Shown: piece by piece, positions 12,564-46,454 of the stretch | Numbering within the stretch: the stretch's first letter is position 1 | Layout of the letters: each line of letters opens with the position of its first letter | From: Candidatus Doudnabacteria bacterium | GTDB lineage: Bacteria; Patescibacteriota; Doudnabacteria; UBA920; 2-01-FULL-46-14 | Assembly: GCA_023246055.1 (NCBI GenBank) | Contig: JAHFJD010000002.1 | Span: 1-46,454 of the forward strand | Length of the DNA: 46,454 nt | Direction: 5' to 3' | Made by a program: the position numbers and the translations under genes | Notes under the pieces: model-generated | Told to the model about the DNA's origin: nothing | What the model saw: only the letters and a program-made list of their open reading frames with translations | Database searches by the model: none

Positions 12564-12634
12564 TCGATGGGGTAGGATTTGAACCTACGACTTTCAGCTC
12601 AATGCTGTCCTCTACCAGGCTGAGGTACCCACCG
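12564..12634 (-). tRNA. tRNA-like gene with a truncated, non-canonical anticodon arm (isotype unassignable)
   Basis: Acceptor CGGTGGG/CCCATCG, D-arm CCTC-AGCCTGGTA-GAGG and T-arm GTAGG-TTCAAAT-CCTAC are all intact. Only 19 nt (CAGCATTGAGCTGAAAGTC) sit where anticodon arm plus variable loop need 21-22. Confidence 0.45.
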
Positions 12635-12978: not shown

Positions 12979-13962
12979 CTAAGTTATCTTCCCCACAATG
13001 TTATTCAATTCCTCGTCAGAAAAAAACTCAATGGTGATTTTTCCGCTGCCTCTGGGGCCTTTGTTCACCTGAACTCGCGTTCCCAATTTGCCACGCAAAA
13101 GGTTCTCAAGCGAAGTCAAAAACGGGTCTGGAGTGAACATTTCTGCAACTTTGATCTTGCGCTGCGTGATTTCGCGAACCTTTGCTTCAATCTCCCTGAC
13201 CTTCATACCGCCTGCTAAAACCATTCTGAACATCTCAAGCATTTCATCACTATTGCGCAGCGTCAAAAGGGGCCTCGCTTGCCCTTCAGCGATCTTGCCC
13301 TCAATCAGTGCGCGCTGAATTTCAACCGGCAGATTGAGGAGGCGTAACAGGTTGGAGACTGTCGAAGGATTCTTGCCGACCTTTACCGCGATCTCGTTGA
13401 CCTTGAGATTGAATTCTTTTTGCAACCGCTCATAAGCCTTGGCCTCCTCAATCGGGTTGAGATCCGCGCGCTGCACATTTTCAATGAGTGCGATTTCGAG
13501 CTTTGCCTCGGAATTGATTTTTGGGGAAAGTAGAGCTGGAATTTTGGTGAGTCCCGCGAGCTTGGCTGCCCGAAATCTACGCTCTCCCACCAAGATCTCA
13601 TATTTACCAACACCCTGCTCGGTCACAACAAGCGGCTGGATAATCCCGTGGACTTTTATAGAATCTGCGAGCTCCCGCAGCTTCTCTGGATCAAAAATAC
13701 GCCGCGGTTGAAATTCGTTTGGTACAATATCGTTTAAATCTATTAGCGCGAGGGCTTGCCCGTCATGAGGAGAACGAAATCTCGCCTGCGGATCGGATTT
13801 CACTGTCGAGTGCAGTATAACATTGTTTCCGGAGGCAACCTCATCTCTTTTCCCCTCCTCATGAGGAGGGGTCGGGGAGGTCGTGGCCTCCAAATCCTCC
13901 TTGTCCCCCGAATCGTCAGCAAAGGAGGAAAAATTCCCGAGTTTAAAGACATCATCGTTCAT
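12979..13962 (-). CDS. parB: Chromosome partitioning protein ParB/Spo0J
   Basis: ParB-box GERRFRAAKLAG and HTH NEIAVKVGKNPSTVSNLLRLL. The N-terminal tail carries a PE-1 element. Confidence 0.9.
   Translation of the reverse strand: MNDDVFKLGNFSSFADDSGDKEDLEATTSPTPPHEEGKRDEVASGNNVILHSTVKSDPQARFRSPHDGQALALIDLNDIVPNEFQPRRIFDPEKLRELADSIKVHGIIQPLVVTEQGVGKYEILVGERRFRAAKLAGLTKIPALLSPKINSEAKLEIALIENVQRADLNPIEEAKAYERLQKEFNLKVNEIAVKVGKNPSTVSNLLRLLNLPVEIQRALIEGKIAEGQARPLLTLRNSDEMLEMFRMVLAGGMKVREIEAKVREITQRKIKVAEMFTPDPFLTSLENLLRGKLGTRVQVNKGPRGSGKITIEFFSDEELNNIVGKIT
13848..13881. repeat. PE-1 element inside parB
   Basis: cccctcc-tcat-gaggagggg-tcggggaggt, translated in-frame as TSPTPPHEEGK. Confidence 0.8.
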
Positions 13963-36625: not shown

Positions 36626-36916
36626 ATGAATATTGATGAACTCAAAAACTTACTCACTCCGGTACTGCGGAATAGCTCTGTGGAATATGCAGGGGTGTTT
36701 GGCAGTGTTGCTAGAGGTGAAGCCAGACCAGACAGCGATGTTGACATCCTCGTGAAATTTTCCGGTCAGCCCACGTTTAGCGGTTTTCTTCAGCTGGAAG
36801 ATGATCTGCAAAAAACTCTCGGGCGAGAAGTTGACCTGGTTACCGAAGGGGGGGTGAATAAATTTTTGCGGCCGCAAATCGAGCAAGATCTAAAAATCAT
36901 ATATGGACAAAGATAA
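36626..36916 (+). CDS. MNT-type nucleotidyltransferase (MntA-like antitoxin)
   Basis: Contains GVFGSVARGEARPDSDVDILV. Confidence 0.85.
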   Translation: MNIDELKNLLTPVLRNSSVEYAGVFGSVARGEARPDSDVDILVKFSGQPTFSGFLQLEDDLQKTLGREVDLVTEGGVNKFLRPQIEQDLKIIYGQR

Positions 36917-37223: not shown

Positions 37224-38480
37224 ATGAATTTTTTTGAAATCCAAAAAAAAGACCCAAAATCGCAAGCGCGGCTCGGGGTCATCAATACCGCTCACGGACC
37301 AGTTAAAACTCCAGCTTTTTTGCCAATTGGCACTAGAGGCTCTGTCAAAACCGTGACCGCAGAAGAGCTCCGATTTTGGGGAGCGGAAATGATCCTGGCT
37401 AACACCTATCATCTCTGGATGCGGCCTGGAGATACGTTAATTGCCAGGGCAGGCGGTTTGCACAAATTCATTGGCTGGGACGGACCTATTTTTACTGATT
37501 CTGGTGGATACCAAGTCTATTCTCTGGGAGAAAAAATCGTCTCGTCATTGCGAGGTAACCCGAAACAATCTAATTCAGAGATTGCCGCGCGGAGTACCGC
37601 TCGCAATGACCTGCAAGAGAAAGGTCCGATTCTCAAAGGCATTAGCAATGTTGGAGTCGAATTTCGAAACGAGCTTGATGGAGCGACTCATGTGCTAACT
37701 CCAGAGGAATCAATCCAGATCCAATCAAACCTCGGATCTGATATTGCGCTCGTGCTCGACGACGTGCCAGCACTGCCGGCGAGCAAGAAACGGCTGGAGG
37801 ATTCCCTAAGGCTCACCTTGCACTGGGCCAAACGCGCCAAATCGCATTACGAAAAGATAATCGAAGCATCGGTGAACCCTGGCCAAAAACTCTATGGCAT
37901 TGTGCAAGGCGGAGATTTGGAAGAGTTGAGAGCAAAATCTGTTCAAGGTCTGCAAAAAATCGGGTTTGACGGATACGGAATCGGGGGGCTAGCGATCGGT
38001 GCCGTAGCAGATAACCCTGAAATAATGTACCGCGTGATCAAAGCTACAACTCCGCACCTCGAAGAAAACAAACCCCGACACCTGCTGGGTGTCGGTTATC
38101 CCGAACAAATTGTCAAGGCTGTGAGCCTCGGCATAGATACTTTCGATTGCGTCATTCCCACGAGAAACGCTCGTCATGCCCAGCTATTTGTGAATTCCAA
38201 GACCTCTCCTTTCTCCCCTCCTAGTGAGGAGGGGTCGGGGGAGGTTAAAAATTATGATCTCATCACCATCACGAACGCTCAATTCAAAGAGGACTTCACC
38301 CCAGTTGACAATACCTGCTCGTGCTACCTCTGCCTGCATCACAACCGCGCGTATTTGCGGCACTTATTCATGAGTGGGGAGCCGCTCGGCATCAGGCTTG
38401 CCACCATGCACAATCTGCGATTCTATCTAGATCTCATGGAAAAAATCCGCCGCGCTATTGAATTTGATTCGTTAGTTTAA
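37224..38480 (+). CDS. tgt: Queuine tRNA-ribosyltransferase with two in-frame repeat insertions
   Basis: Contains GWDGPIFTDSGGYQV, GIGGLAIG and Zn motif CSCYLCLHHNRAYLRHL. 418 aa versus about 375 typical. Confidence 0.92.
   Translation: MNFFEIQKKDPKSQARLGVINTAHGPVKTPAFLPIGTRGSVKTVTAEELRFWGAEMILANTYHLWMRPGDTLIARAGGLHKFIGWDGPIFTDSGGYQVYSLGEKIVSSLRGNPKQSNSEIAARSTARNDLQEKGPILKGISNVGVEFRNELDGATHVLTPEESIQIQSNLGSDIALVLDDVPALPASKKRLEDSLRLTLHWAKRAKSHYEKIIEASVNPGQKLYGIVQGGDLEELRAKSVQGLQKIGFDGYGIGGLAIGAVADNPEIMYRVIKATTPHLEENKPRHLLGVGYPEQIVKAVSLGIDTFDCVIPTRNARHAQLFVNSKTSPFSPPSEEGSGEVKNYDLITITNAQFKEDFTPVDNTCSCYLCLHHNRAYLRHLFMSGEPLGIRLATMHNLRFYLDLMEKIRRAIEFDSLV
37544..37610. repeat. PE-3 element inside tgt
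   Basis: gtcattgcgagg...(45 nt)...ctcgcaatgac, translated as SSLRGNPKQSNSEIAARSTARNDL. Confidence 0.8.
38203..38245. repeat. PE-1 element inside tgt
   Basis: cccctcc-tagt-gaggagggg-tcgggggaggt, translated as SPFSPPSEEGSGEV. Confidence 0.8.
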
Positions 38481-41454: not shown

Positions 41455-43109
41455 TTACGCCCCAGGATTTCTGGTCACAAGGTTACTGACAATCGTCACA
41501 ATGGCATAAGCCATGATAATGATGACAATGCCGATGACAGCGCCGGTGATGGTTTTTTTGGCTTTTTCCGTGGCTTCCTCATTGCCGCGCGCGGCAATAT
41601 ACTGAAACCCGCCGACTAGCAAGAACAGGACAGCAATGCCGCCAGCAAAATACAGCATCCAGCCAATAGCCCTGGTGAGCAGGGAACCGAAATCCCTGAT
41701 ATCGACGAGGTAGTTTGGGGCAGGGTTTTGGATTCCACCGCTGCCACCTCCACCTGTGCCAGTATTTCCTGCACCGCCTGAGTTAGTGTTGTTTATTCCG
41801 CCACTATTAGTTCCCGCATTACCGGCACCAGCATTTGAATTCTGCACGTTAACAGAAATTTCTGCGGGAACAGCTTGGTTCCCTGAACTATCTTGACCTG
41901 TCGCCACAAATGTATGCTCGCCATTGGAAAGCGTACTGGTATCAAGATTGACAGTAAAAAAGGGGCGGCGACTCCGCTTCCCATAGAAACGTCATCGGCC
42001 TTGATGTCGGGACTAATATCATCCCGACTGCTCCCCCAATCAGATGCATAGACCGTAACTGGAACAGTACCAGAGACTGTTGAATCGTCTGCCGGGCTAG
42101 TGAAATGAATCGTCGGCGACTTTGGATCGCAGGACAGCCATTTGCCCGCGGCATTGGGAGAAACTCTCACGCTCACCGAAAGGCTTGAAGGATCAGAAAT
42201 ACTAGGCTCAACGGTGAGTACGGACTCGAGGCTATGAGCAGCTATTTCTGCGTCAGAAAGACCGTCGCGGAAAACGTCAATGGTTTTTTGTGCGCCTGGT
42301 TGAAGTGTGTACGTATAAACCAGCATGTCCTGCGTACGTATTGGTGGACCCGTTGGACATAGATGTTGAGCCGTGCCCTGGAACCCGCTATAGAGGTGAT
42401 TTCGCACCGTAAAAGTAACTGGGACTGATTTATTGTTGGTCAGTGTCATTTTTGTCTGCCACCCGTTAGGCCAATCGGGCCAGTTGTGCCAAAAATTCCC
42501 ATACGATGTAAAGAACACCTTCTGGTCAGGGTCCCAACTAGTTGGAATATCTGAACCCCAAACATCCCATCCCTTAAAATACGCATCTTCTAAACTATTT
42601 TGTGATGATCCCCGGATCGTGAAAAGATGAGGATCAAATGAGTAAAACGGCTTCGCTGAAATCCCATTGTAATCTATGCTCTCAATGATGACTGTGCCTG
42701 TCCACTGGAAGGGCCTATTATCTTGGACCCCAGGAAAAGAAACATTCATAAAATTCCAGTTCGTCCCTATCCATGGATTTGAAGGAGTGTAACCGCTAAT
42801 TTCGCGGGGTCCGTAATACGCGGAGCAACCGCCCGTTACATGCGGACAATCGATTACATAGTTTGGATCGTCCGATATGAATGAAACTTGTACCCATGTA
42901 GTATCTGGATTCGGATTGCCTATTCCAGCAGCAAAATCTTGGACTTCCCAGCCTGGAGAAATCTCTTTGGCATACGCTTCCATTCCGGTATATTCAAAGC
43001 GGATCTGTTTTGTGGCAGCTGCTGCTGGCAAGGCAAAATAAAATCCTCCTAAAAAGACACCTAAAATCAAAAAAAAATTGATAAAGTTCAGGAGGTTATT
43101 TATTTTCAT
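41455..43109 (-). CDS. Surface protein (signal peptide, Ig-like domain, Gly/Asn-rich linker, VirB2/TrbC-like two-TM anchor) interrupted by a -1 frameshift
   Basis: The zero frame (43109 to 41793) and the -1 frame (about 41990 to 41455) join at a C4T6 run (41956-41965). The joined read is ...GSGVAAPFFTVNLDTSTLSNGEHTFVATGQDSSGNQA. The C-terminus is AIGWMLYFAGGIAVLFLLVGGFQYIAARGNEEATEKAKKTITGAVIGIVIIIMAY. Confidence 0.6.
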
Positions 43110-43157
43110 GGCAACTTTGAATTTGGTTTCGGTGTAGGAATGACCTAACCATTTTCT

Positions 43158-43185
43158 GTCATTCCTGGGAAATGCGGGAATCCAG
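43158..43185. repeat. PE-2 element (half copy, intergenic)
   Basis: gtcattcctgggaaatgcgggaatccag. Confidence 0.7.
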
Positions 43186-43193
43186 ATAACGGA

Positions 43194-43460
43194 TCATTTC
43201 TTCAACTTCAATTTCTCCACAATCTTTTCGTGCCGTTTTTCGTCTTCGCCCTTGAGGTATCGAAGTAACCGGCGGCGGTTGCCAACCATCTTCAAAAGCC
43301 CACGGCGGGAGTGGTTATCCTTTTTGTGCTTCTCCAAGTGCTTTGCCACCTCTTCGATTTCCGTTGTCAAAATCGCGATCTGCACCTCGGGAGACCCGGT
43401 ATCACCCTTATGGGTCTGAAATTTTTTGATTATGGTTTCCTTTTGCTTATTCGACAGCAT
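43194..43460 (-). CDS. rpsO: 30S ribosomal protein S15
   Basis: ATG at 43460. Contains [14 protein letters not shown] and [15 protein letters not shown]. Confidence 0.93.
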
Positions 43461-43552
43461 GAAAAGAATATTAACATAAAGTTTCCTAGCCTGCAAGTCG
43501 TCAAAATTTCGTTTTTCTCTCCTGGGACGGGAAGAATCAAGGAGGAATCTTG

Positions 43553-43607
43553 CCTCTCCCTCTTCCATTCCCTCGCCCCCTTACGGGGAGAGTGTTAGGG
43601 TGAGGGG
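43553..43607. repeat. PE-1 element upstream of rpsO
   Basis: ccctcgccccc-ttac-ggggagag-tgttagggtgagggg. Confidence 0.75.
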
Positions 43608-43706
43608 TAGAGATAAGAATCTTAATTCGTTCCCGGCCCGGGAGAGGAGCGAATCGCGATATTTCGTGCGATTCGCTCGGGACTGTATTGAAATGACTGC
43701 CTGCCT

Positions 43707-43811
43707 TCCCGAAGCCAAGCTGTTGAATTTGTCTCGGCTCGGGCGCCGAGTTCCAGAAACGAGTTTGGGTGCTAGATTAACATCCAAAATTGTGTCCAAA
43801 ATTTGACATTC
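43707..43811 (+). repeat. R105 block, copy 1 (identical to 44760-44864)
   Basis: Base-by-base comparison gives 105/105 identity. It contains the hairpin ctcggc-tcgggc-gccgag, the block ttccagaaacgagtttggg, and the -35 TTGACA. Confidence 0.9.
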
Positions 43812-43830
43812 GATTAAAAAAGAATAAACT
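43803..43830 (+). promoter_or_regulatory. Candidate promoter of paralog 1, predicting a leaderless or near-leaderless mRNA
   Basis: TTGACA, a 16-nt spacer, then TAAACT. The ATG lies 6 nt after the -10. Confidence 0.5.
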
Positions 43831-43836
43831 GGAAAT

Positions 43837-44151
43837 ATGAGTGAACTCACCAAAGAACATTTTGACAAAGGGTTGGAAAAACCTATTACCAATAAATATC
43901 TACTTGATTTTACAAGGGAGATTATTTTTCCGGGTGTTCGGGAAATTGTTCGAGAAGAGAATATAAAATTCAGAGACGATATCCTCACCAGCAATTACAA
44001 ACTGGCAAAAAAACTTGATCAGATTCTCAAAGAACAACAAGCGATCACCGCCGGCTTCAAACGGCTACAAGATCGAATTAACTACCTCGAAGCTGTAGTC
44101 AAAGTCTTGGCTGAAAAAGAAGGTCTGCAATTTTCTCCCCCAGAATCCTAA
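43837..44151 (+). CDS. Small coiled-coil protein, paralog 1 (104 aa)
   Basis: ITNKYLLDFTREIIFPGV aligns with VTKRYLGEFTETVLLPAM of paralog 2. A terminator follows. Confidence 0.65.
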   Translation: MSELTKEHFDKGLEKPITNKYLLDFTREIIFPGVREIVREENIKFRDDILTSNYKLAKKLDQILKEQQAITAGFKRLQDRINYLEAVVKVLAEKEGLQFSPPES

Positions 44152-44154
44152 ACT

Positions 44155-44173
44155 GCCGCATAGGCGGTTTTTT
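44155..44173 (+). terminator. Short rho-independent terminator
   Basis: ccgc-atag-gcgg followed by a T6 run. Confidence 0.5.
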
Positions 44174-44249
44174 GTTATTCACTTTTCAAAGTACTTTCTT
44201 TCCGCGCGAATCCCATCCTTTGACCAATCTTGAATCCATTTCTCTTTGC

Positions 44250-44276
44250 GTCATTCCCGCGGAGGCGGGAATCCAG
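44250..44276. repeat. PE-2 element (half copy) inserted between degenerate and intact module blocks
   Basis: gtcattcccgcggaggcgggaatccag. Confidence 0.75.
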
Positions 44277-44279
44277 CCC

Positions 44280-44367
44280 TCAAAGAACTATCCGCAACTC
44301 CTAAATCCACAATTGATAATTCTGAACTTGGGAGTGAGAAAGTCGAAGCTCTGCTTGCGACTTTCTC
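44280..44367 (+). ncRNA. Module A1: conserved block, short hairpin, GAACTTGGGAGT, hairpin 2 (candidate structured RNA or recombination module)
   Basis: tcaaagaactatccgcaactcctaaatccac; aatt-gat-aatt; gaacttgggagt; gagaaagtcg-(12 nt)-cgactttctc. A degenerate extra copy of block 1 lies at 44184-44240. Confidence 0.4.
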
Positions 44368-44518
44368 GTGGCTGTCTAAAAGAACCGGTTTCTGTTTCGC
44401 TCGCGTCTCCGCCTGGCCGAACTGTTTACAACCCACAGTGCGATCAGATTGAGCGCTATCAAAATCATGAACATCATTATCCCAACAGCGTACTGATCTG
44501 CGGTAGCCTGCTGCGGAC

Positions 44519-44728
44519 TCATCGTCGCCTCCATAAAAGAGGTTCATGGCATGACGGCGCATGGTCACTGGCAATCGCCGCGAACCAGTTAATGGCTGCG
44601 GCGACGATCACTGCTGATAATACTGGTGCAACCTTGATCAGATACAACGGAGCGAAGAAAATTCCGAGACCGAACAGCACCAAGCTCAGCACCATCGCGC
44701 TAAGGTTCATCCGAAACCAAATGTACAT
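44519..44728 (-). CDS. Small two-TM hypothetical membrane protein (69 aa)
   Basis: Hydrophobic ORF between modules. There is no supporting motif. Confidence 0.3.
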   Translation of the reverse strand: MYIWFRMNLSAMVLSLVLFGLGIFFAPLYLIKVAPVLSAVIVAAAINWFAAIASDHAPSCHEPLLWRRR

Positions 44729-44759
44729 TTAAACCCCCTTGAAACTGTTTTGCTCACCC

Positions 44760-44864
44760 TCCCGAAGCCAAGCTGTTGAATTTGTCTCGGCTCGGGCGCC
44801 GAGTTCCAGAAACGAGTTTGGGTGCTAGATTAACATCCAAAATTGTGTCCAAAATTTGACATTC
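44760..44864 (+). repeat. R105 block, copy 2 (identical to 43707-43811)
   Basis: 105/105 identity by direct comparison. Confidence 0.9.
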
Positions 44865-44883
44865 AGTTTAAAAGGGCTAAACT
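44856..44883 (+). promoter_or_regulatory. Candidate promoter of paralog 2, predicting a near-leaderless mRNA
   Basis: TTGACA, a 16-nt spacer, then TAAACT. The ATG lies 7 nt after the -10. Confidence 0.5.
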
Positions 44884-44890
44884 TGGAAAT

Positions 44891-45172
44891 ATGAGCGATA
44901 ATGAACTTGACGAGCCGGTAACCAAAAGGTACTTGGGAGAGTTTACAGAAACCGTCCTGTTGCCTGCCATGTCCTCGATGATGGATGAAAAATTGAAACC
45001 CTTGGGGGACGATGTCCAAGCATTATCTGCTAAAGTTACTACTTATCTTGAACTTTCTGACAAACGTTATTTGGAACTCAAAAACAAATACAGACTGTTG
45101 GGCAAATGGGTCAAACAAATCGCTGACAAAACCGGAGTGAATATCGACATTACAGAACTGGAAAAATTCTGA
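44891..45172 (+). CDS. Small coiled-coil protein, paralog 2 (93 aa)
   Basis: ATG at 44891 (MSDNELDEPVTKRYLGEFTETVLLPAM). Homologous to 43837-44151. A terminator follows. Confidence 0.65.
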   Translation: MSDNELDEPVTKRYLGEFTETVLLPAMSSMMDEKLKPLGDDVQALSAKVTTYLELSDKRYLELKNKYRLLGKWVKQIADKTGVNIDITELEKF

Positions 45173-45192
45173 CAAATTCTTTAACAGCTTAA

Positions 45193-45214
45193 CCGCCACA
45201 TAGGCGGTTTTTTT
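45193..45214 (+). terminator. Rho-independent terminator
   Basis: ccgcc-acata-ggcgg followed by a T7 run. Confidence 0.7.
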
Positions 45215-45216
45215 AG

Positions 45217-45351
45217 CTTTCAAAGAGCTTTCCGTAACTCCTAAATCCACTTGTATCACAGATTTCTCGATCGAGAAATCTGTGATACAACCGAACTTGG
45301 GAGTTGGAGGAAACGACGTGCATGTTGCGCGCGCTTCCTCCGAAAAAAACG
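45217..45351 (+). ncRNA. Module B: conserved block, 40-bp perfect palindrome, GAACTTGGGAGT, hairpin 2
   Basis: ctttcaaagagctttccgtaactcctaaatccac; ttgtatcacagatttctcga/tcgagaaatctgtgatacaa (45251-45290); ccgaacttgggagt; ggaggaa-(32 nt)-ttcctcc. Confidence 0.4.
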
Positions 45352-45713
45352 ATCAATCCTCCTTGATTATACTCTGACATCCGTGTCAGAGGCCTTGGAT
45401 TTTAGGCTTATATTTATGATTGCGAAGCTTTTTCACCTGAATTGATGATTCAAGTGCCACCGCACGCTTCAGATGCAATGCCGGAGTATTCACTCTCGGG
45501 CGGCCCTGCTCTTCCGGAAGAGCTGTGTCCGCTGTCCGTCCTGAAAGACTTCAGGCAATAGTCGCTGGGTATCACGCCAGTTTCCCTTTGCCAAATAGTC
45601 CACACCTTCAGGAAAGCTGCAAGACGAATCTCGCAACAGGTTCCGCGTTTGTGGACGCGGCCGAAGACAGAATCCGAAAAATTGCTTTCTCGGAGAGTCT
45701 TCTGGATGCAAAG

Positions 45714-45995
45714 TTACAGTAGTAAAGAGTCTACTACCTCCAGCCACTCAATCCCGTTATGGGTGGCCACGGAAATTGCTTCGGCAATCTCGCTAAGATT
45801 GCCGAATTTCGCCGCAACTTTTAGTTGCGACAGAAACCCTTGATGGTGGGCATGCGCCCACATTGCACTATTGGACTCTTCGGCCCAATTAGCGCAGTCC
45901 ATCGAACAGCAGGCTATGCCGTTCGGTTCAACCAACCGGGCCATGACCGGATGGTTGAAAAACTCTTTTTTGCAATAATAACACTGCATCTGCAT
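45714..45995 (-). CDS. Hypothetical Cys-rich (zinc-ribbon-like) protein (93 aa)
   Basis: CYYCKK...CCSMDC near the N-terminus. There is no family assignment. Confidence 0.4.
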   Translation of the reverse strand: MQMQCYYCKKEFFNHPVMARLVEPNGIACCSMDCANWAEESNSAMWAHAHHQGFLSQLKVAAKFGNLSEIAEAISVATHNGIEWLEVVDSLLL

Positions 45996-46004
45996 TTTTT
46001 TCTC

Positions 46005-46292
46005 CTAACCCACCTGCTTCTTGCGAAGTTCAGGTGTTATGCGGGTATGTTGCGCGGCTTTCATTGCGCCTTCCGTGACCATACAAACACGGCCTGTAGA
46101 AACTTTTAGGGTTATTCTCCCATGGGTGGCGCCCCAATCTTTCCTTGCGAAAAGCAACCTGGATACTTTCTTTCTTCTTGCTGTTTCAAATTCAGCAACC
46201 ACAATGTGTGGATCCCAGGTCCCTCCAGAGGCGGGCAGGCAAGCCGGGGATGACAAACTTTTTAACGAAAATAACCAGATAGCTTTCCGCAA
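46005..46292 (-). CDS. Hypothetical protein (up to 95 aa; the N-terminal part may be repeat-derived)
   Basis: The ORF includes a PE-5 core (46224-46244), translated as ACLPASGG. The true start is uncertain. Confidence 0.3.
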   Translation of the reverse strand: MRKAIWLFSLKSLSSPACLPASGGTWDPHIVVAEFETARRKKVSRLLFARKDWGATHGRITLKVSTGRVCMVTEGAMKAAQHTRITPELRKKQVG

Positions 46293-46306
46293 AGAATACT
46301 ATTGAT

Positions 46307-46439
46307 CTTTCAAAGAACTATCCAAAACTTCCAAATCCATTTGTTCCACAGTTTTAACGATCGTCAAATATGTGGAACTTCTGTTTTCCAGAAACGACTT
46401 TGGGCACCAGGTAGTAGAACCTTGCGGTACACTACCTGG
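46307..46439 (+). ncRNA. Module C: conserved block, hairpin 1, TTCCAGAAACGACTTTGGG, hairpin 2 (PE-4 short form); it continues beyond the window
   Basis: ctttcaaagaactatccaaaacttccaaatccat; gttccaca-(20 nt)-tgtggaac; ttccagaaacgactttgggcacc; ccaggtagt-(15 nt)-actacctgg; then cttcggctaacatgg, homologous to the R105 interior. Confidence 0.4.
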
Positions 46440-46454
46440 CTTCGGCTAACATGG

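What the first reader, a model, noticed from the sequence alone, without database searches (positions are those of the whole stretch)
43707..44891. A 105-bp block is 100% identical upstream of two highly diverged paralogous small genes, with predicted leaderless transcripts
Positions 43707-43811 and 44760-44864 are identical at all 105 positions by direct comparison. The two genes that follow encode clearly homologous but strongly diverged proteins. For example, ITNKYLLDFTREIIFPGV aligns with VTKRYLGEFTETVLLPAM, and most other positions differ. Neutral duplication cannot produce perfect identity upstream alongside heavy divergence downstream. That pattern implies strong functional constraint, ongoing gene conversion, or a recombination or exchange site that swaps coding cassettes behind a fixed element. 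The block ends in a TTGACA / 16-nt / TAAACT promoter whose -10 sits only 6-7 nt before each ATG, which predicts leaderless mRNAs. A third, partially related copy of the block interior (ttccagaaacgactttggg...cttcggctaacatgg) runs off the window end at 46386-46454. This suggests at least one more unit beyond the window.
Basis: seen in the sequence. Interest (0 to 1): 0.65.

Follow-up and report, generated by a model that had tools for sequence, protein, structure and literature searches.

The report
Recently copied promoter region before old paralogs
Two ancient, very different copies of a small gene in an uncultured groundwater-type bacterium share a perfectly identical 105-base control region, most likely because that stretch was recently copied from one locus to the other; this is a known kind of event, and the stretch also holds a possible new RNA leader for a gene on the other strand.

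Summary
Positions 43707-43811 and 44760-44864 are identical at 105 of 105 bases. Identity falls to 73% up to each ATG and to about 49% in the coding sequence.

The two genes (104 and 93 aa) are true but ancient paralogs. Each subfamily is conserved separately across Candidate Phyla Radiation (CPR) genomes.

The TTGACA-16-TAAACT promoter, ending 6-7 nt before the ATG with no Shine-Dalgarno site, is shared by about 15 of 18 family members examined. It is present in an ortholog that lacks the block. The leaderless design is therefore ancestral and was not brought in by the block.

The block is a mosaic of three parts:
- Most of a two-hairpin leader motif ("D") that reads on the opposite strand. 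It is supported by covariation and normally precedes SD+ATG of opposite-strand genes, mostly membrane proteins.
- A shortened "B" element.
- The -35 region.

The block has no terminal inverted repeats, target duplications or inverted copies. No recombinase was found among the ORFs screened.

Upstream regions group by genome rather than by paralog subfamily. The best explanation is a recent gene-conversion tract within an older duplicated control region.

This is a known phenomenon. The D motif is a modest new lead. Interest is low to moderate.

The parts
43707..43811 (+). Block copy 1, a 105-nt exact repeat. It contains the D motif (minus its H2 3' arm), the B remnant and the -35.
   Evidence: 105/105 identical, no extension
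44760..44864 (+). Block copy 2, in its native divergent-promoter context between the opposite-strand membrane ORF and gene 2.
   Evidence: Homology to L042 extends 11 nt beyond its left edge (44749-44832) but not beyond copy 1's.
43803..43830 (+). Promoter of gene 1: TTGACA, 16 nt, TAAACT. The -10 ends 6 nt before the ATG, so a leaderless mRNA is predicted.
   Evidence: the family-wide geometry
44856..44883 (+). Promoter of gene 2: TTGACA, 16 nt, TAAACT. The -10 ends 7 nt before the ATG.
43837..44151 (+). Gene 1, 104 aa, subfamily 1 of a small CPR-restricted helical protein family of unknown function.
   Evidence: no Pfam, PHROG or PADLOC family
44891..45172 (+). Gene 2, 93 aa, subfamily 2. 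It is predicted to be one long helix (residues 10-81).
44150..44170 (+). Intrinsic terminator of gene 1.
45191..45209 (+). Intrinsic terminator of gene 2.
44744..44811 (-). D motif copy 2: hairpin H1 (loop CCCGA) plus hairpin H2 (loop UCGGGA), 24 nt upstream of the AAGGGGG SD and the ATG of ORF 44519-44728.
43691..43758 (-). D motif copy 1. It has its own H2 3' arm (AGGCAGGC, outside the block, 7 of 8 pairs) but no ORF follows. It is probably a relic.
44519..44728 (-). 69-aa two-TM orphan ORF downstream of D copy 2. A second 52-aa ORF lies at 44376-44534.
   Evidence: no homologs found, so its reality is uncertain
43751..43802 (+). B remnant in copy 1 (the same sequence lies at 44804-44855 in copy 2): TTCCAGAAACGAGTTTGGGTGCTAG...TCCAAAATTGTGTCCAAAAT. 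The apical ~40 nt are deleted relative to L042, L087, L001 and L074.
46386..46454 (+). Longer B-type element with an inner hairpin (CCAGGTAGT...ACTACCTGG), cut by the end of the contig.
45215..45306 (+). A element: a conserved outer stem (AACTCCTAAATCC / GAACTTGGGAGTT) around a variable inner hairpin. Other copies lie at 44275-44337 and 46305-46375 (a half copy).

Best explanation
The 105-nt block is the footprint of a recent non-reciprocal copy, that is, a gene-conversion tract or an equivalent short homologous-recombination patch. It lies between two neighbouring, directly oriented copies, 1053 bp apart, of an older modular control region.

That control region serves two divergent transcription units:
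- On the + strand, a sigma-70-type promoter whose -10 lies 6-7 nt from the ATG. This gives a leaderless mRNA for a small helical protein and ends at an intrinsic terminator.
- On the - strand, a two-hairpin leader ('D') that precedes the ribosome-binding site of a small membrane-protein gene.

The two + strand genes are ancient paralogs whose coding sequences have long since diverged. Only the control region is repeatedly homogenised within a genome, and the 105-nt tract is the latest such event.

Shown:
- the exact identity and its sharp edges;
- the age of the paralogs;
- the ancestral promoter;
- the mosaic make-up of the block;
- the lack of transposon or site-specific hallmarks;
- the clustering of upstream regions by genome.

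Inferred:
- the recombination mechanism and the direction of copying (copy 2 as likely donor);
- the leaderless start sites;
- that D acts as an RNA.
For: 1. The identity is exact over 105 nt and drops at once to 19/26 up to the ATG and about 49% in the CDS.

2. The paralogs are old. Subfamily 1 (8 sequences) and subfamily 2 (23 sequences) are each 61-87% identical within themselves across different MAGs, but only 22-29% identical between subfamilies. hhalign gives E 4.6e-11.

3. The right edge lies in ancestral homology. The L001 ortholog has the same -35, spacer, -10 and ATG without the block.

4. Orthologous D+B sequence in another Doudnabacteria genome (L042) is only 77% identical to the block. 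A third block-plus-gene-2-like copy in the same ENA sample (P0030) is about 90% identical as translated. Exact identity is therefore not the normal conservation level.

5. Locus 1 already had its own D motif. Its H2 3' arm lies outside the block, differs in sequence from copy 2's, and still pairs 7 of 8.

6. There is concerted evolution:
- In L013 the two paralogs' upstream 70 nt are 70% identical to each other, against 58-62% to their window orthologs.
- The window gene 2 (subfamily 2) core promoter is 85% identical to the subfamily 1 promoter of L001, against 51-61% to subfamily 2 orthologs.
- Background is 47%, with a 95th percentile of 53%.

7. The block has no TIR or TSD and no further copies in the 46 kb. 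Nothing similar turns up in phages or plasmids.
Against: - Left-flank sequence similarity is not significant on its own (14/27 matches; 686 of 2000 shuffles do as well). Pre-existing homology on that side rests on the structural argument alone.
- Only two copies are available, and there is no sister strain with readable DNA. The event therefore cannot be dated and the donor cannot be proven.
- The within-genome promoter similarity in L013 could partly reflect shared regulatory motifs rather than conversion.
- Exactness could be inflated by assembler bubble-popping.
Confidence: 0.62

Rival explanations
1. Mobile promoter or miniature transposable element: the block is a small mobile unit, carrying a -35, that inserted independently upstream of both genes.
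For: The pair meets the operational definition of 'putative mobile promoters': at least 80% identity over at least 50 nt upstream of genes whose coding sequences are dissimilar (PMC3575422). Its modules (A, B, C, D) recur in different combinations in related genomes. Two assemblies break inside A, B or C elements (and the window end).
Against: - The block has no terminal inverted repeats and no target-site duplication (sequence).
- The -35 and the bases around it are ancestral, since they are present in L001 without the block.
- The 18-base core of B occurs once in one Doudnabacteria species representative. The A pattern occurs once each in two, among 185,579 genomes.
- The covariance model finds no further D copies in 733 kb.
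- No transposase was seen among the ORFs screened.
Confidence: 0.12
2. Assembly artefact: two similar but not identical copies were merged into identical sequence, or a repeat-induced misjoin created one copy.
For: The source is a metagenome contig. The contig ends inside a related repeat (46386-46454). Another assembly of this locus is only 2784 nt long and breaks in repeats.
Against: The independent ENA contig carries both genes at the same spacing, with identical gene 1 and identical 93-aa neighbour proteins. Each copy has unique flanks that are coherent with relatives. Even if a few SNPs were collapsed, the near-identity would still stand.
Confidence: 0.1
3. Purifying selection alone keeps the two blocks identical, because both carry the same regulator sites or RNA.
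For: The block does carry functional-looking parts: the covarying D hairpins, an A-rich tract upstream of the -35, and the -35 itself.
Against: The same elements in related genomes are only about 77% identical, and their stems vary freely through compensatory changes. In the window copies the apical part of B is deleted relative to all four relatives. Function therefore tolerates much change. Identity at 105 of 105, including loops and spacers, is not what constraint alone produces.
Confidence: 0.05
4. Site-specific recombination site (integron-like, shufflon-like or dif-module-like) that exchanges coding cassettes behind a fixed element.
For: The region is an array of small monocistronic units separated by imperfect palindromes (the A element), which is superficially cassette-like.
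Against: - The copies are direct, not inverted, and no inverted copy exists.
- The A element's arms do not form the RYYYAAC/GTTRRRY cores. Complementarity starts only at AAC/GTT (sequence).
- No integrase or recombinase was found among the ORFs screened.
- The units point in both directions.
Confidence: 0.03

Closest known systems
Concerted evolution by gene conversion between paralogous loci in bacteria (for example tuf genes or rRNA operons)
   Same: A short tract of perfect identity sits inside older, diverged duplicates a short distance apart. Within-genome similarity exceeds between-genome orthology for that segment.
   Different: Here the homogenised segment is the non-coding control region only, and the coding sequences (24% aa identity) are untouched. 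Classic cases homogenise the genes themselves.
Putative mobile promoters / promoter reuse (Matus-Garcia, Nijveen, van Passel 2012; commentary PMC3575422)
   Same: Highly similar upstream sequence, here 100% over about 100 nt, lies in front of genes whose coding DNA is dissimilar. That survey also reported pairs that were 100% identical over 100 bp and asked whether selection or recent duplication was the cause.
   Different: The two genes here are distant paralogs with an ancestral common promoter. The promoter was therefore not captured from elsewhere. Only the sequence upstream of it was refreshed.
Modular intergenic repeats (pneumococcal BOX, enterobacterial ERIC, Neisseria Correia elements, REP/BIME); comparison from general knowledge
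   Same: Short palindromic modules (A, B, C, D) are combined in different orders in intergenic regions. Some lie next to promoters or inside leaders.
   Different: Copy number is very low per genome in the data available. The elements are confined to small-gene islands, with none in the first 43 kb of the window. No TIR or TSD was seen.
Leaderless mRNAs of Actinobacteria, Deinococcus and archaea (-10 about 6-7 nt from the start codon)
   Same: The -10 hexamer ends 6-7 nt before the ATG and there is no SD. This is conserved across the family and seen at other genes of the window.
   Different: There is no transcript mapping for this organism. The status rests on promoter geometry only.

Membership tests
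Gene-conversion tract within an older duplication | Sharp-edged tract of identity flanked by lower, older homology on both sides | tested here: inconclusive
   The right flank is clearly homologous (19/26 to the ATG, and ancestral in L001). Left-flank sequence similarity is not significant. However, copy 1 keeps its own complementary H2 arm just outside the block.
Gene-conversion tract within an older duplication | The duplicates are much older than the tract | tested here: met
   The two subfamilies are conserved separately across many CPR genomes.
Gene-conversion tract within an older duplication | For the segment, paralogs within a genome are more alike than orthologs between genomes | tested here: met
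   (L013 pair 70% vs 58-62%; window gene 2 promoter 85% to the L001 subfamily 1 promoter vs 51-61% to subfamily 2 orthologs).
Putative mobile promoter (operational definition, PMC3575422) | At least 80% identity over at least 50 nt in the upstream region, with dissimilar adjacent coding DNA | tested here: met
   100% over 105 nt (about -130 to -26 from each ATG). The first 90 nt of the CDS are 49% identical. The genes are remote paralogs, though.
MITE or IS end with an outward promoter | Terminal inverted repeats and target-site duplication | tested here: not met
   The block ends (TCCCGAAGCC... / ...TTTGACATTC) are not complementary, and the flanks share no duplicated bases.
MITE or IS end with an outward promoter | Many dispersed copies in the genome | tested here: inconclusive
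   There are two copies in 46 kb, and 1-2 module copies per related genome fragment. The rest of this genome is not available.
Integron cassette array | attC sites with RYYYAAC / GTTRRRY cores, and an intI integrase | tested here: not met
   The A-element arms pair only from AAC/GTT inward. No integrase was found among the screened ORFs. The window does not cover the far side of the array.
Invertible or shufflon-type switch | Inverted copies of the recombination site flanking the segment | tested here: not met
   Only direct copies are present.
Leaderless transcription unit | -10 ending about 5-8 nt before the start codon, with no SD | tested here: met
Leaderless transcription unit | Transcription start mapped at the A of the ATG | not testable with these tools
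   No transcriptome data are available.
Any Rfam family | Score at or above the gathering threshold | tested here: not met
   Only tRNAs pass in the window. The permissive search of 43100-46454 gives nothing near threshold.
Structured 5' leader RNA (candidate motif D) | Conserved helices with compensatory changes, strand-specific G-U pairs, and a fixed position before the SD and start codon | tested here: met
   - 93% of cells are paired, and 6 of 15 pairs show double changes. Sliding the partners gives 36-49% paired.
- All 8 G-U pairs fall on the gene's strand, where the other strand would have 8 extra mismatches.
- 5 of 6 copies lie 16-27 nt before SD+ATG.
- There are only 5 independent sequences from 4 genomes, so this remains provisional.

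The most novel reading that the evidence does not exclude
The left half of the block is a previously undescribed 5' leader RNA of Doudnabacteria. It consists of two covarying hairpins whose conserved loops (CCCGA and UCGGG) can pair with each other, placed just before the ribosome-binding site of opposite-strand genes, mostly membrane proteins. In addition, the divergent control region that holds it is kept uniform between ancient paralogs by recurrent gene conversion restricted to the promoter, so that diverged genes stay under one control.
Probability: 0.3. Interest if true: 0.5.

Novelty: new member of a known kind. Interest (0 to 1): 0.33.

Why it matters
This is a clean natural example of a control region being homogenised while the genes behind it stay far apart. 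It bears on how co-regulation of old paralogs is maintained in tiny CPR genomes.

It also gives comparative support for leaderless transcription in a CPR lineage that has no transcript data.

It yields a small, testable candidate RNA motif. None of this overturns current understanding.

The 105-nt direct repeats are also long enough to mediate deletion of the 1-kb segment between them (gene 1 and the membrane ORFs). This could create population variation at the locus.

Tried and rejected
- **Extending the contig.** Exact-protein look-ups found only a 2784-nt ENA contig whose DNA is not readable. The contigs of three further paralogs in the same sample were equally unreadable.
- **Exact 36-mer of the block in species-representative genomes.** No hit.
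- **18-base B core in genomes and JGI metagenomes.** Most hits were chance. The real ones were L042, L049, L051 and L080 (one locus), L070 and L085 (the L001 locus), L074 and L087.
- **A-element gapped pattern.** Only L042 and L096 were real.
- **First profile-based locus search.** It failed because the confirmation sequence and the pattern came from different subfamilies. It was redone with subfamily 2.
- **Folding the block as RNA on either strand.** It is not more stable than shuffles (z = -1.6 for both).
- **RNAalifold on four B elements.** Only the invariant outer stem was recovered. The inner-hairpin covariation that I see by eye rests on two sequence types, so no claim is made for B.
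- **Homologs of the 69-aa opposite-strand ORF.** None found.
- **Pfam, PHROG and PADLOC for all small ORFs.** Nothing significant.
- **Structure of gene 2.** The model is one long helix of moderate confidence. A fold search was skipped because a single helix matches anything.
- **Diversity-generating retroelement template/variable repeat.** Rejected, because the copies are identical rather than differing at adenines, and they are non-coding.
- **Type I toxin-antitoxin reading of small hydrophobic ORF plus nearby structured RNA.** Considered, but the D-associated genes range from 22 to 216 aa and one is not hydrophobic.
Full report
**Observation**

Direct comparison shows that 43707-43811 and 44760-44864 are identical at all 105 positions, with a mismatch immediately outside each end. 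The repeat finder independently reports 132 nt at 93%. The scan tool finds TTGACA, 16 nt, TAAACT at 43803-43830 and 44856-44883, and intrinsic terminators just after each gene at 44150-44170 and 45191-45209. Each gene is therefore a self-contained promoter-ORF-terminator unit. No other part of the 46-kb window matches any 20-mer of the block within 3 mismatches, except 46387 onward.

**The genes**

- Gene 1 (43837-44151, 104 aa) and gene 2 (44891-45172, 93 aa) are 24% identical (E 5e-8).
- Each has its own set of relatives: 8 proteins for gene 1 and more than 30 for gene 2, mostly from Candidatus Doudnabacteria and other CPR metagenome-assembled genomes.
- In a joint alignment the two sets form separate subfamilies, each 61-87% identical inside and 22-29% between. 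Profile-profile comparison confirms homology (97% probability, E 4.6e-11). The duplication is therefore old.
- A search of 1.84 billion representative proteins finds only 103 clusters, almost all 50-145 aa.
- There is no Pfam, PHROG or PADLOC match.
- AlphaFold predicts one long helix (residues 10-81, pLDDT 69).
- Function is unknown. It is a small helical, probably coiled-coil protein.

**The promoter is ancestral and leaderless in design**

Upstream regions of 18 family members from 15 loci were lined up on their ATGs. About 15 have TTGAC at the same place, a -10 (TATAAT, TAAACT or similar) ending about 6-8 nt before the ATG, and no Shine-Dalgarno sequence. The closest ortholog of gene 1 (L001, Doudnabacteria GCA_001779975.1, 73% aa identity) has AAAAATTTGACATTCGGTTAAAAAGAGCTAAACTGAAAATATG. 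Upstream of that it carries a different element (A) instead of the block. The block therefore did not bring the promoter, and its right-hand edge lies inside sequence that both paralogs already shared.

In the window, the same promoter-to-ATG geometry also precedes parB (13962), an AI-2E transporter gene (32591), an ORF at 36626 and rpsO (43460). Only 10 of 1445 ATGs have it. Leaderless starts therefore look like a general habit of this organism.

**What the block is made of**

Related sequences were recovered from L042 (Doudnabacteria RIFCSPHIGHO2_01_48_18), L087 and L074 (JGI metagenome), L096 (Doudnabacteria 01_FULL_46_14) and L001. They show that the block is a mosaic.

*D motif (left part).* Its left ~50 nt are most of a motif I call D, which reads on the minus strand. 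D has two parts:
- hairpin H1, with a 6-7 bp stem and loop CCCGA;
- after a short spacer, hairpin H2, with an 8 bp stem and loop UCGGG(A).

A simple descriptor search finds D six times: window (two copies), L042, L087 and L096 (two copies). It gives only about three unrelated hits in 1.6 Mb of searched sequence (both strands).

The evidence that D is a real RNA structure is as follows:
- The stems differ between copies through compensatory changes.
- 72 Watson-Crick and 8 G-U pairs form on the minus-strand sense, and those 8 become mismatches on the other strand.
- On a 5-sequence alignment, 93% of cells pair and 6 of 15 pairs show double changes. Sliding the partners gives 36-49%.
- A covariance model built without L096b ranks it first among non-training hits (15.5 bits, E about 0.1). 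It finds no further copies in 733 kb.

Five of the six D copies lie 16-27 nt upstream of an SD and ATG on the same strand. Four of those genes encode membrane proteins. Block copy 2 is one of these, next to the 69-aa ORF 44519-44728. That ORF has no detectable homologs.

Copy 1 has a complete D whose H2 3' arm (AGGCAGGC) lies outside the block. This arm differs from copy 2's (GGGTGAGC) and still pairs 7 of 8. No ORF follows it.

*B remnant (middle part).* The middle of the block (43751-43802) is a shortened version of element B. The apical ~40 nt present in L042, L087, L001 and L074 are missing. The sequence at the window end (46386-46454) is a longer B.

*Right end.* The last 9 nt are the -35 and three further bases.

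**Why recent copying is the best explanation**

- The homologous D+B region of L042 is only 77% identical to the block.
- A third, frameshifted gene-2-like copy in the same ENA sample (P0030) carries a block-like upstream stretch that is about 90% identical as translated.
- D stems tolerate many substitutions.

Perfect identity over hairpins, loops and spacers alike therefore points to recency, not constraint.

- The block has no terminal inverted repeats or target duplications.
- Its modules are rare in genomes.
- Nothing similar exists in phage or plasmid collections.
- The surrounding 46 kb is ordinary chromosome (pnp, rpsO, parB, tgt, tatD).
- No recombinase was seen among the ORFs screened.

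Upstream regions also group by genome rather than by subfamily. In L013, which also has both paralogs in tandem, their upstream 70 nt are 70% identical to each other but 58-62% to the window orthologs. The core promoter of window gene 2 is 85% identical to the subfamily 1 promoter of L001, but 51-61% to subfamily 2 orthologs elsewhere.

This is the signature of repeated exchange limited to the control region. Copy 2 is the more likely donor. It sits in the native context (D followed by SD and ORF), and homology to L042 runs 11 nt beyond its left edge only.

**Limits**

- The left-flank sequence similarity is not significant by itself.
- The DNA of the second assembly could not be read.
- The rest of the genome is not available.
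- Assembler collapse of two near-identical copies cannot be excluded.
- D rests on five independent sequences.

**Comparison with known things**

Highly similar upstream regions in front of dissimilar coding sequences are a documented class: more than 4000 families, some 100% identical over 100 bp (PMC3575422). Gene conversion between nearby repeats is textbook. What is slightly unusual here is that the homogenised piece is purely regulatory, shared by two divergent units, and lies between paralogs as distant as 24% identity. D has no Rfam counterpart.

**Verdict**

This is a new member of a known kind. Interest is about 0.33.

Noticed in passing
window 43503-43650 (also L001 4762-4849, L087 388-507, L096 3630-3764): Element 'C' is a long imperfect hairpin (CTCCTGGGACGGGAA...TTCCCGGCCCGGGAGAG) with a variable apical insert. 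It is 77-92% conserved between genomes and sits next to a second hairpin and upstream of unrelated genes (rpsO here, a LOG-family gene in L001 and L087).
   Followed up: partly
window 44275-44337, 45215-45306, 46305-46375; L001 5091-5168; L042 1398-1435; L087 996-1037 and 1612-1655; L096 392-464, 1841-1924, 2640-2679: Element 'A' has a conserved outer stem (AACTCCTAAATCC / GAAyTTGGGAGTT) with an invariant T-G pair, around an inner hairpin of very variable length. It usually lies between a gene's terminator and the next gene. Its function is unknown.
   Followed up: partly
window 43460 (minus strand): rpsO appears to be leaderless: TTGCAG, 17 nt, TAATAT, 7 nt, ATG. The longer ORF call starting at 43568 is probably wrong. 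Similar geometry occurs at 13962 (parB), 32591 and 36626.
   Followed up: partly
window 43156-43187 and 44246-44278; L001 5930-5990: Copies of a short palindrome, GTCATTCC(C/T)G..GCGGGAATCCAG, are present. This kind of palindrome yields spurious 'VIPAKAGIQ'-like ORFs.
   Followed up: no
window 38210-38245 and 43557-43607; L013 3554-3589: GC-rich palindromic inserts of the type CCCCTCACCC...GGGGAGAGG recur inside other hairpin elements and between genomes (89% over 36 nt).
   Followed up: no
window 12564-12634 (minus strand): Rfam calls a third tRNA (44.7 bits) that ARAGORN does not report.
   Followed up: no
window 41455-41907 (minus strand): A T4SS-pilin-like (PF18895) small protein with a Gly/Asn/Thr/Ser-rich low-complexity N-terminal half lies next to a 438-aa Ig-domain protein. 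This is typical CPR surface-gene content.
   Followed up: no
L096 2770-3420 (plus strand): The 216-aa membrane protein downstream of a D motif has a C-terminal region that resembles FliL by eye. It was not checked against any family library.
   Followed up: no
protein P0042 (representative library): A 2794-aa protein contains 21 matched stretches to the small-protein family profile. The ~50-residue core therefore also exists as a long tandem repeat.
   Followed up: no
window 45714-45995 (minus strand), terminator 45694-45673: A 93-aa Cys-rich ORF (CxxC...CC...C) with its own terminator is identical in the ENA contig. The overlapping or adjacent 95-aa ORF 46005-46292 is probably not a gene, because its region aligns to non-coding hairpin sequence in L013.
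   Followed up: partly
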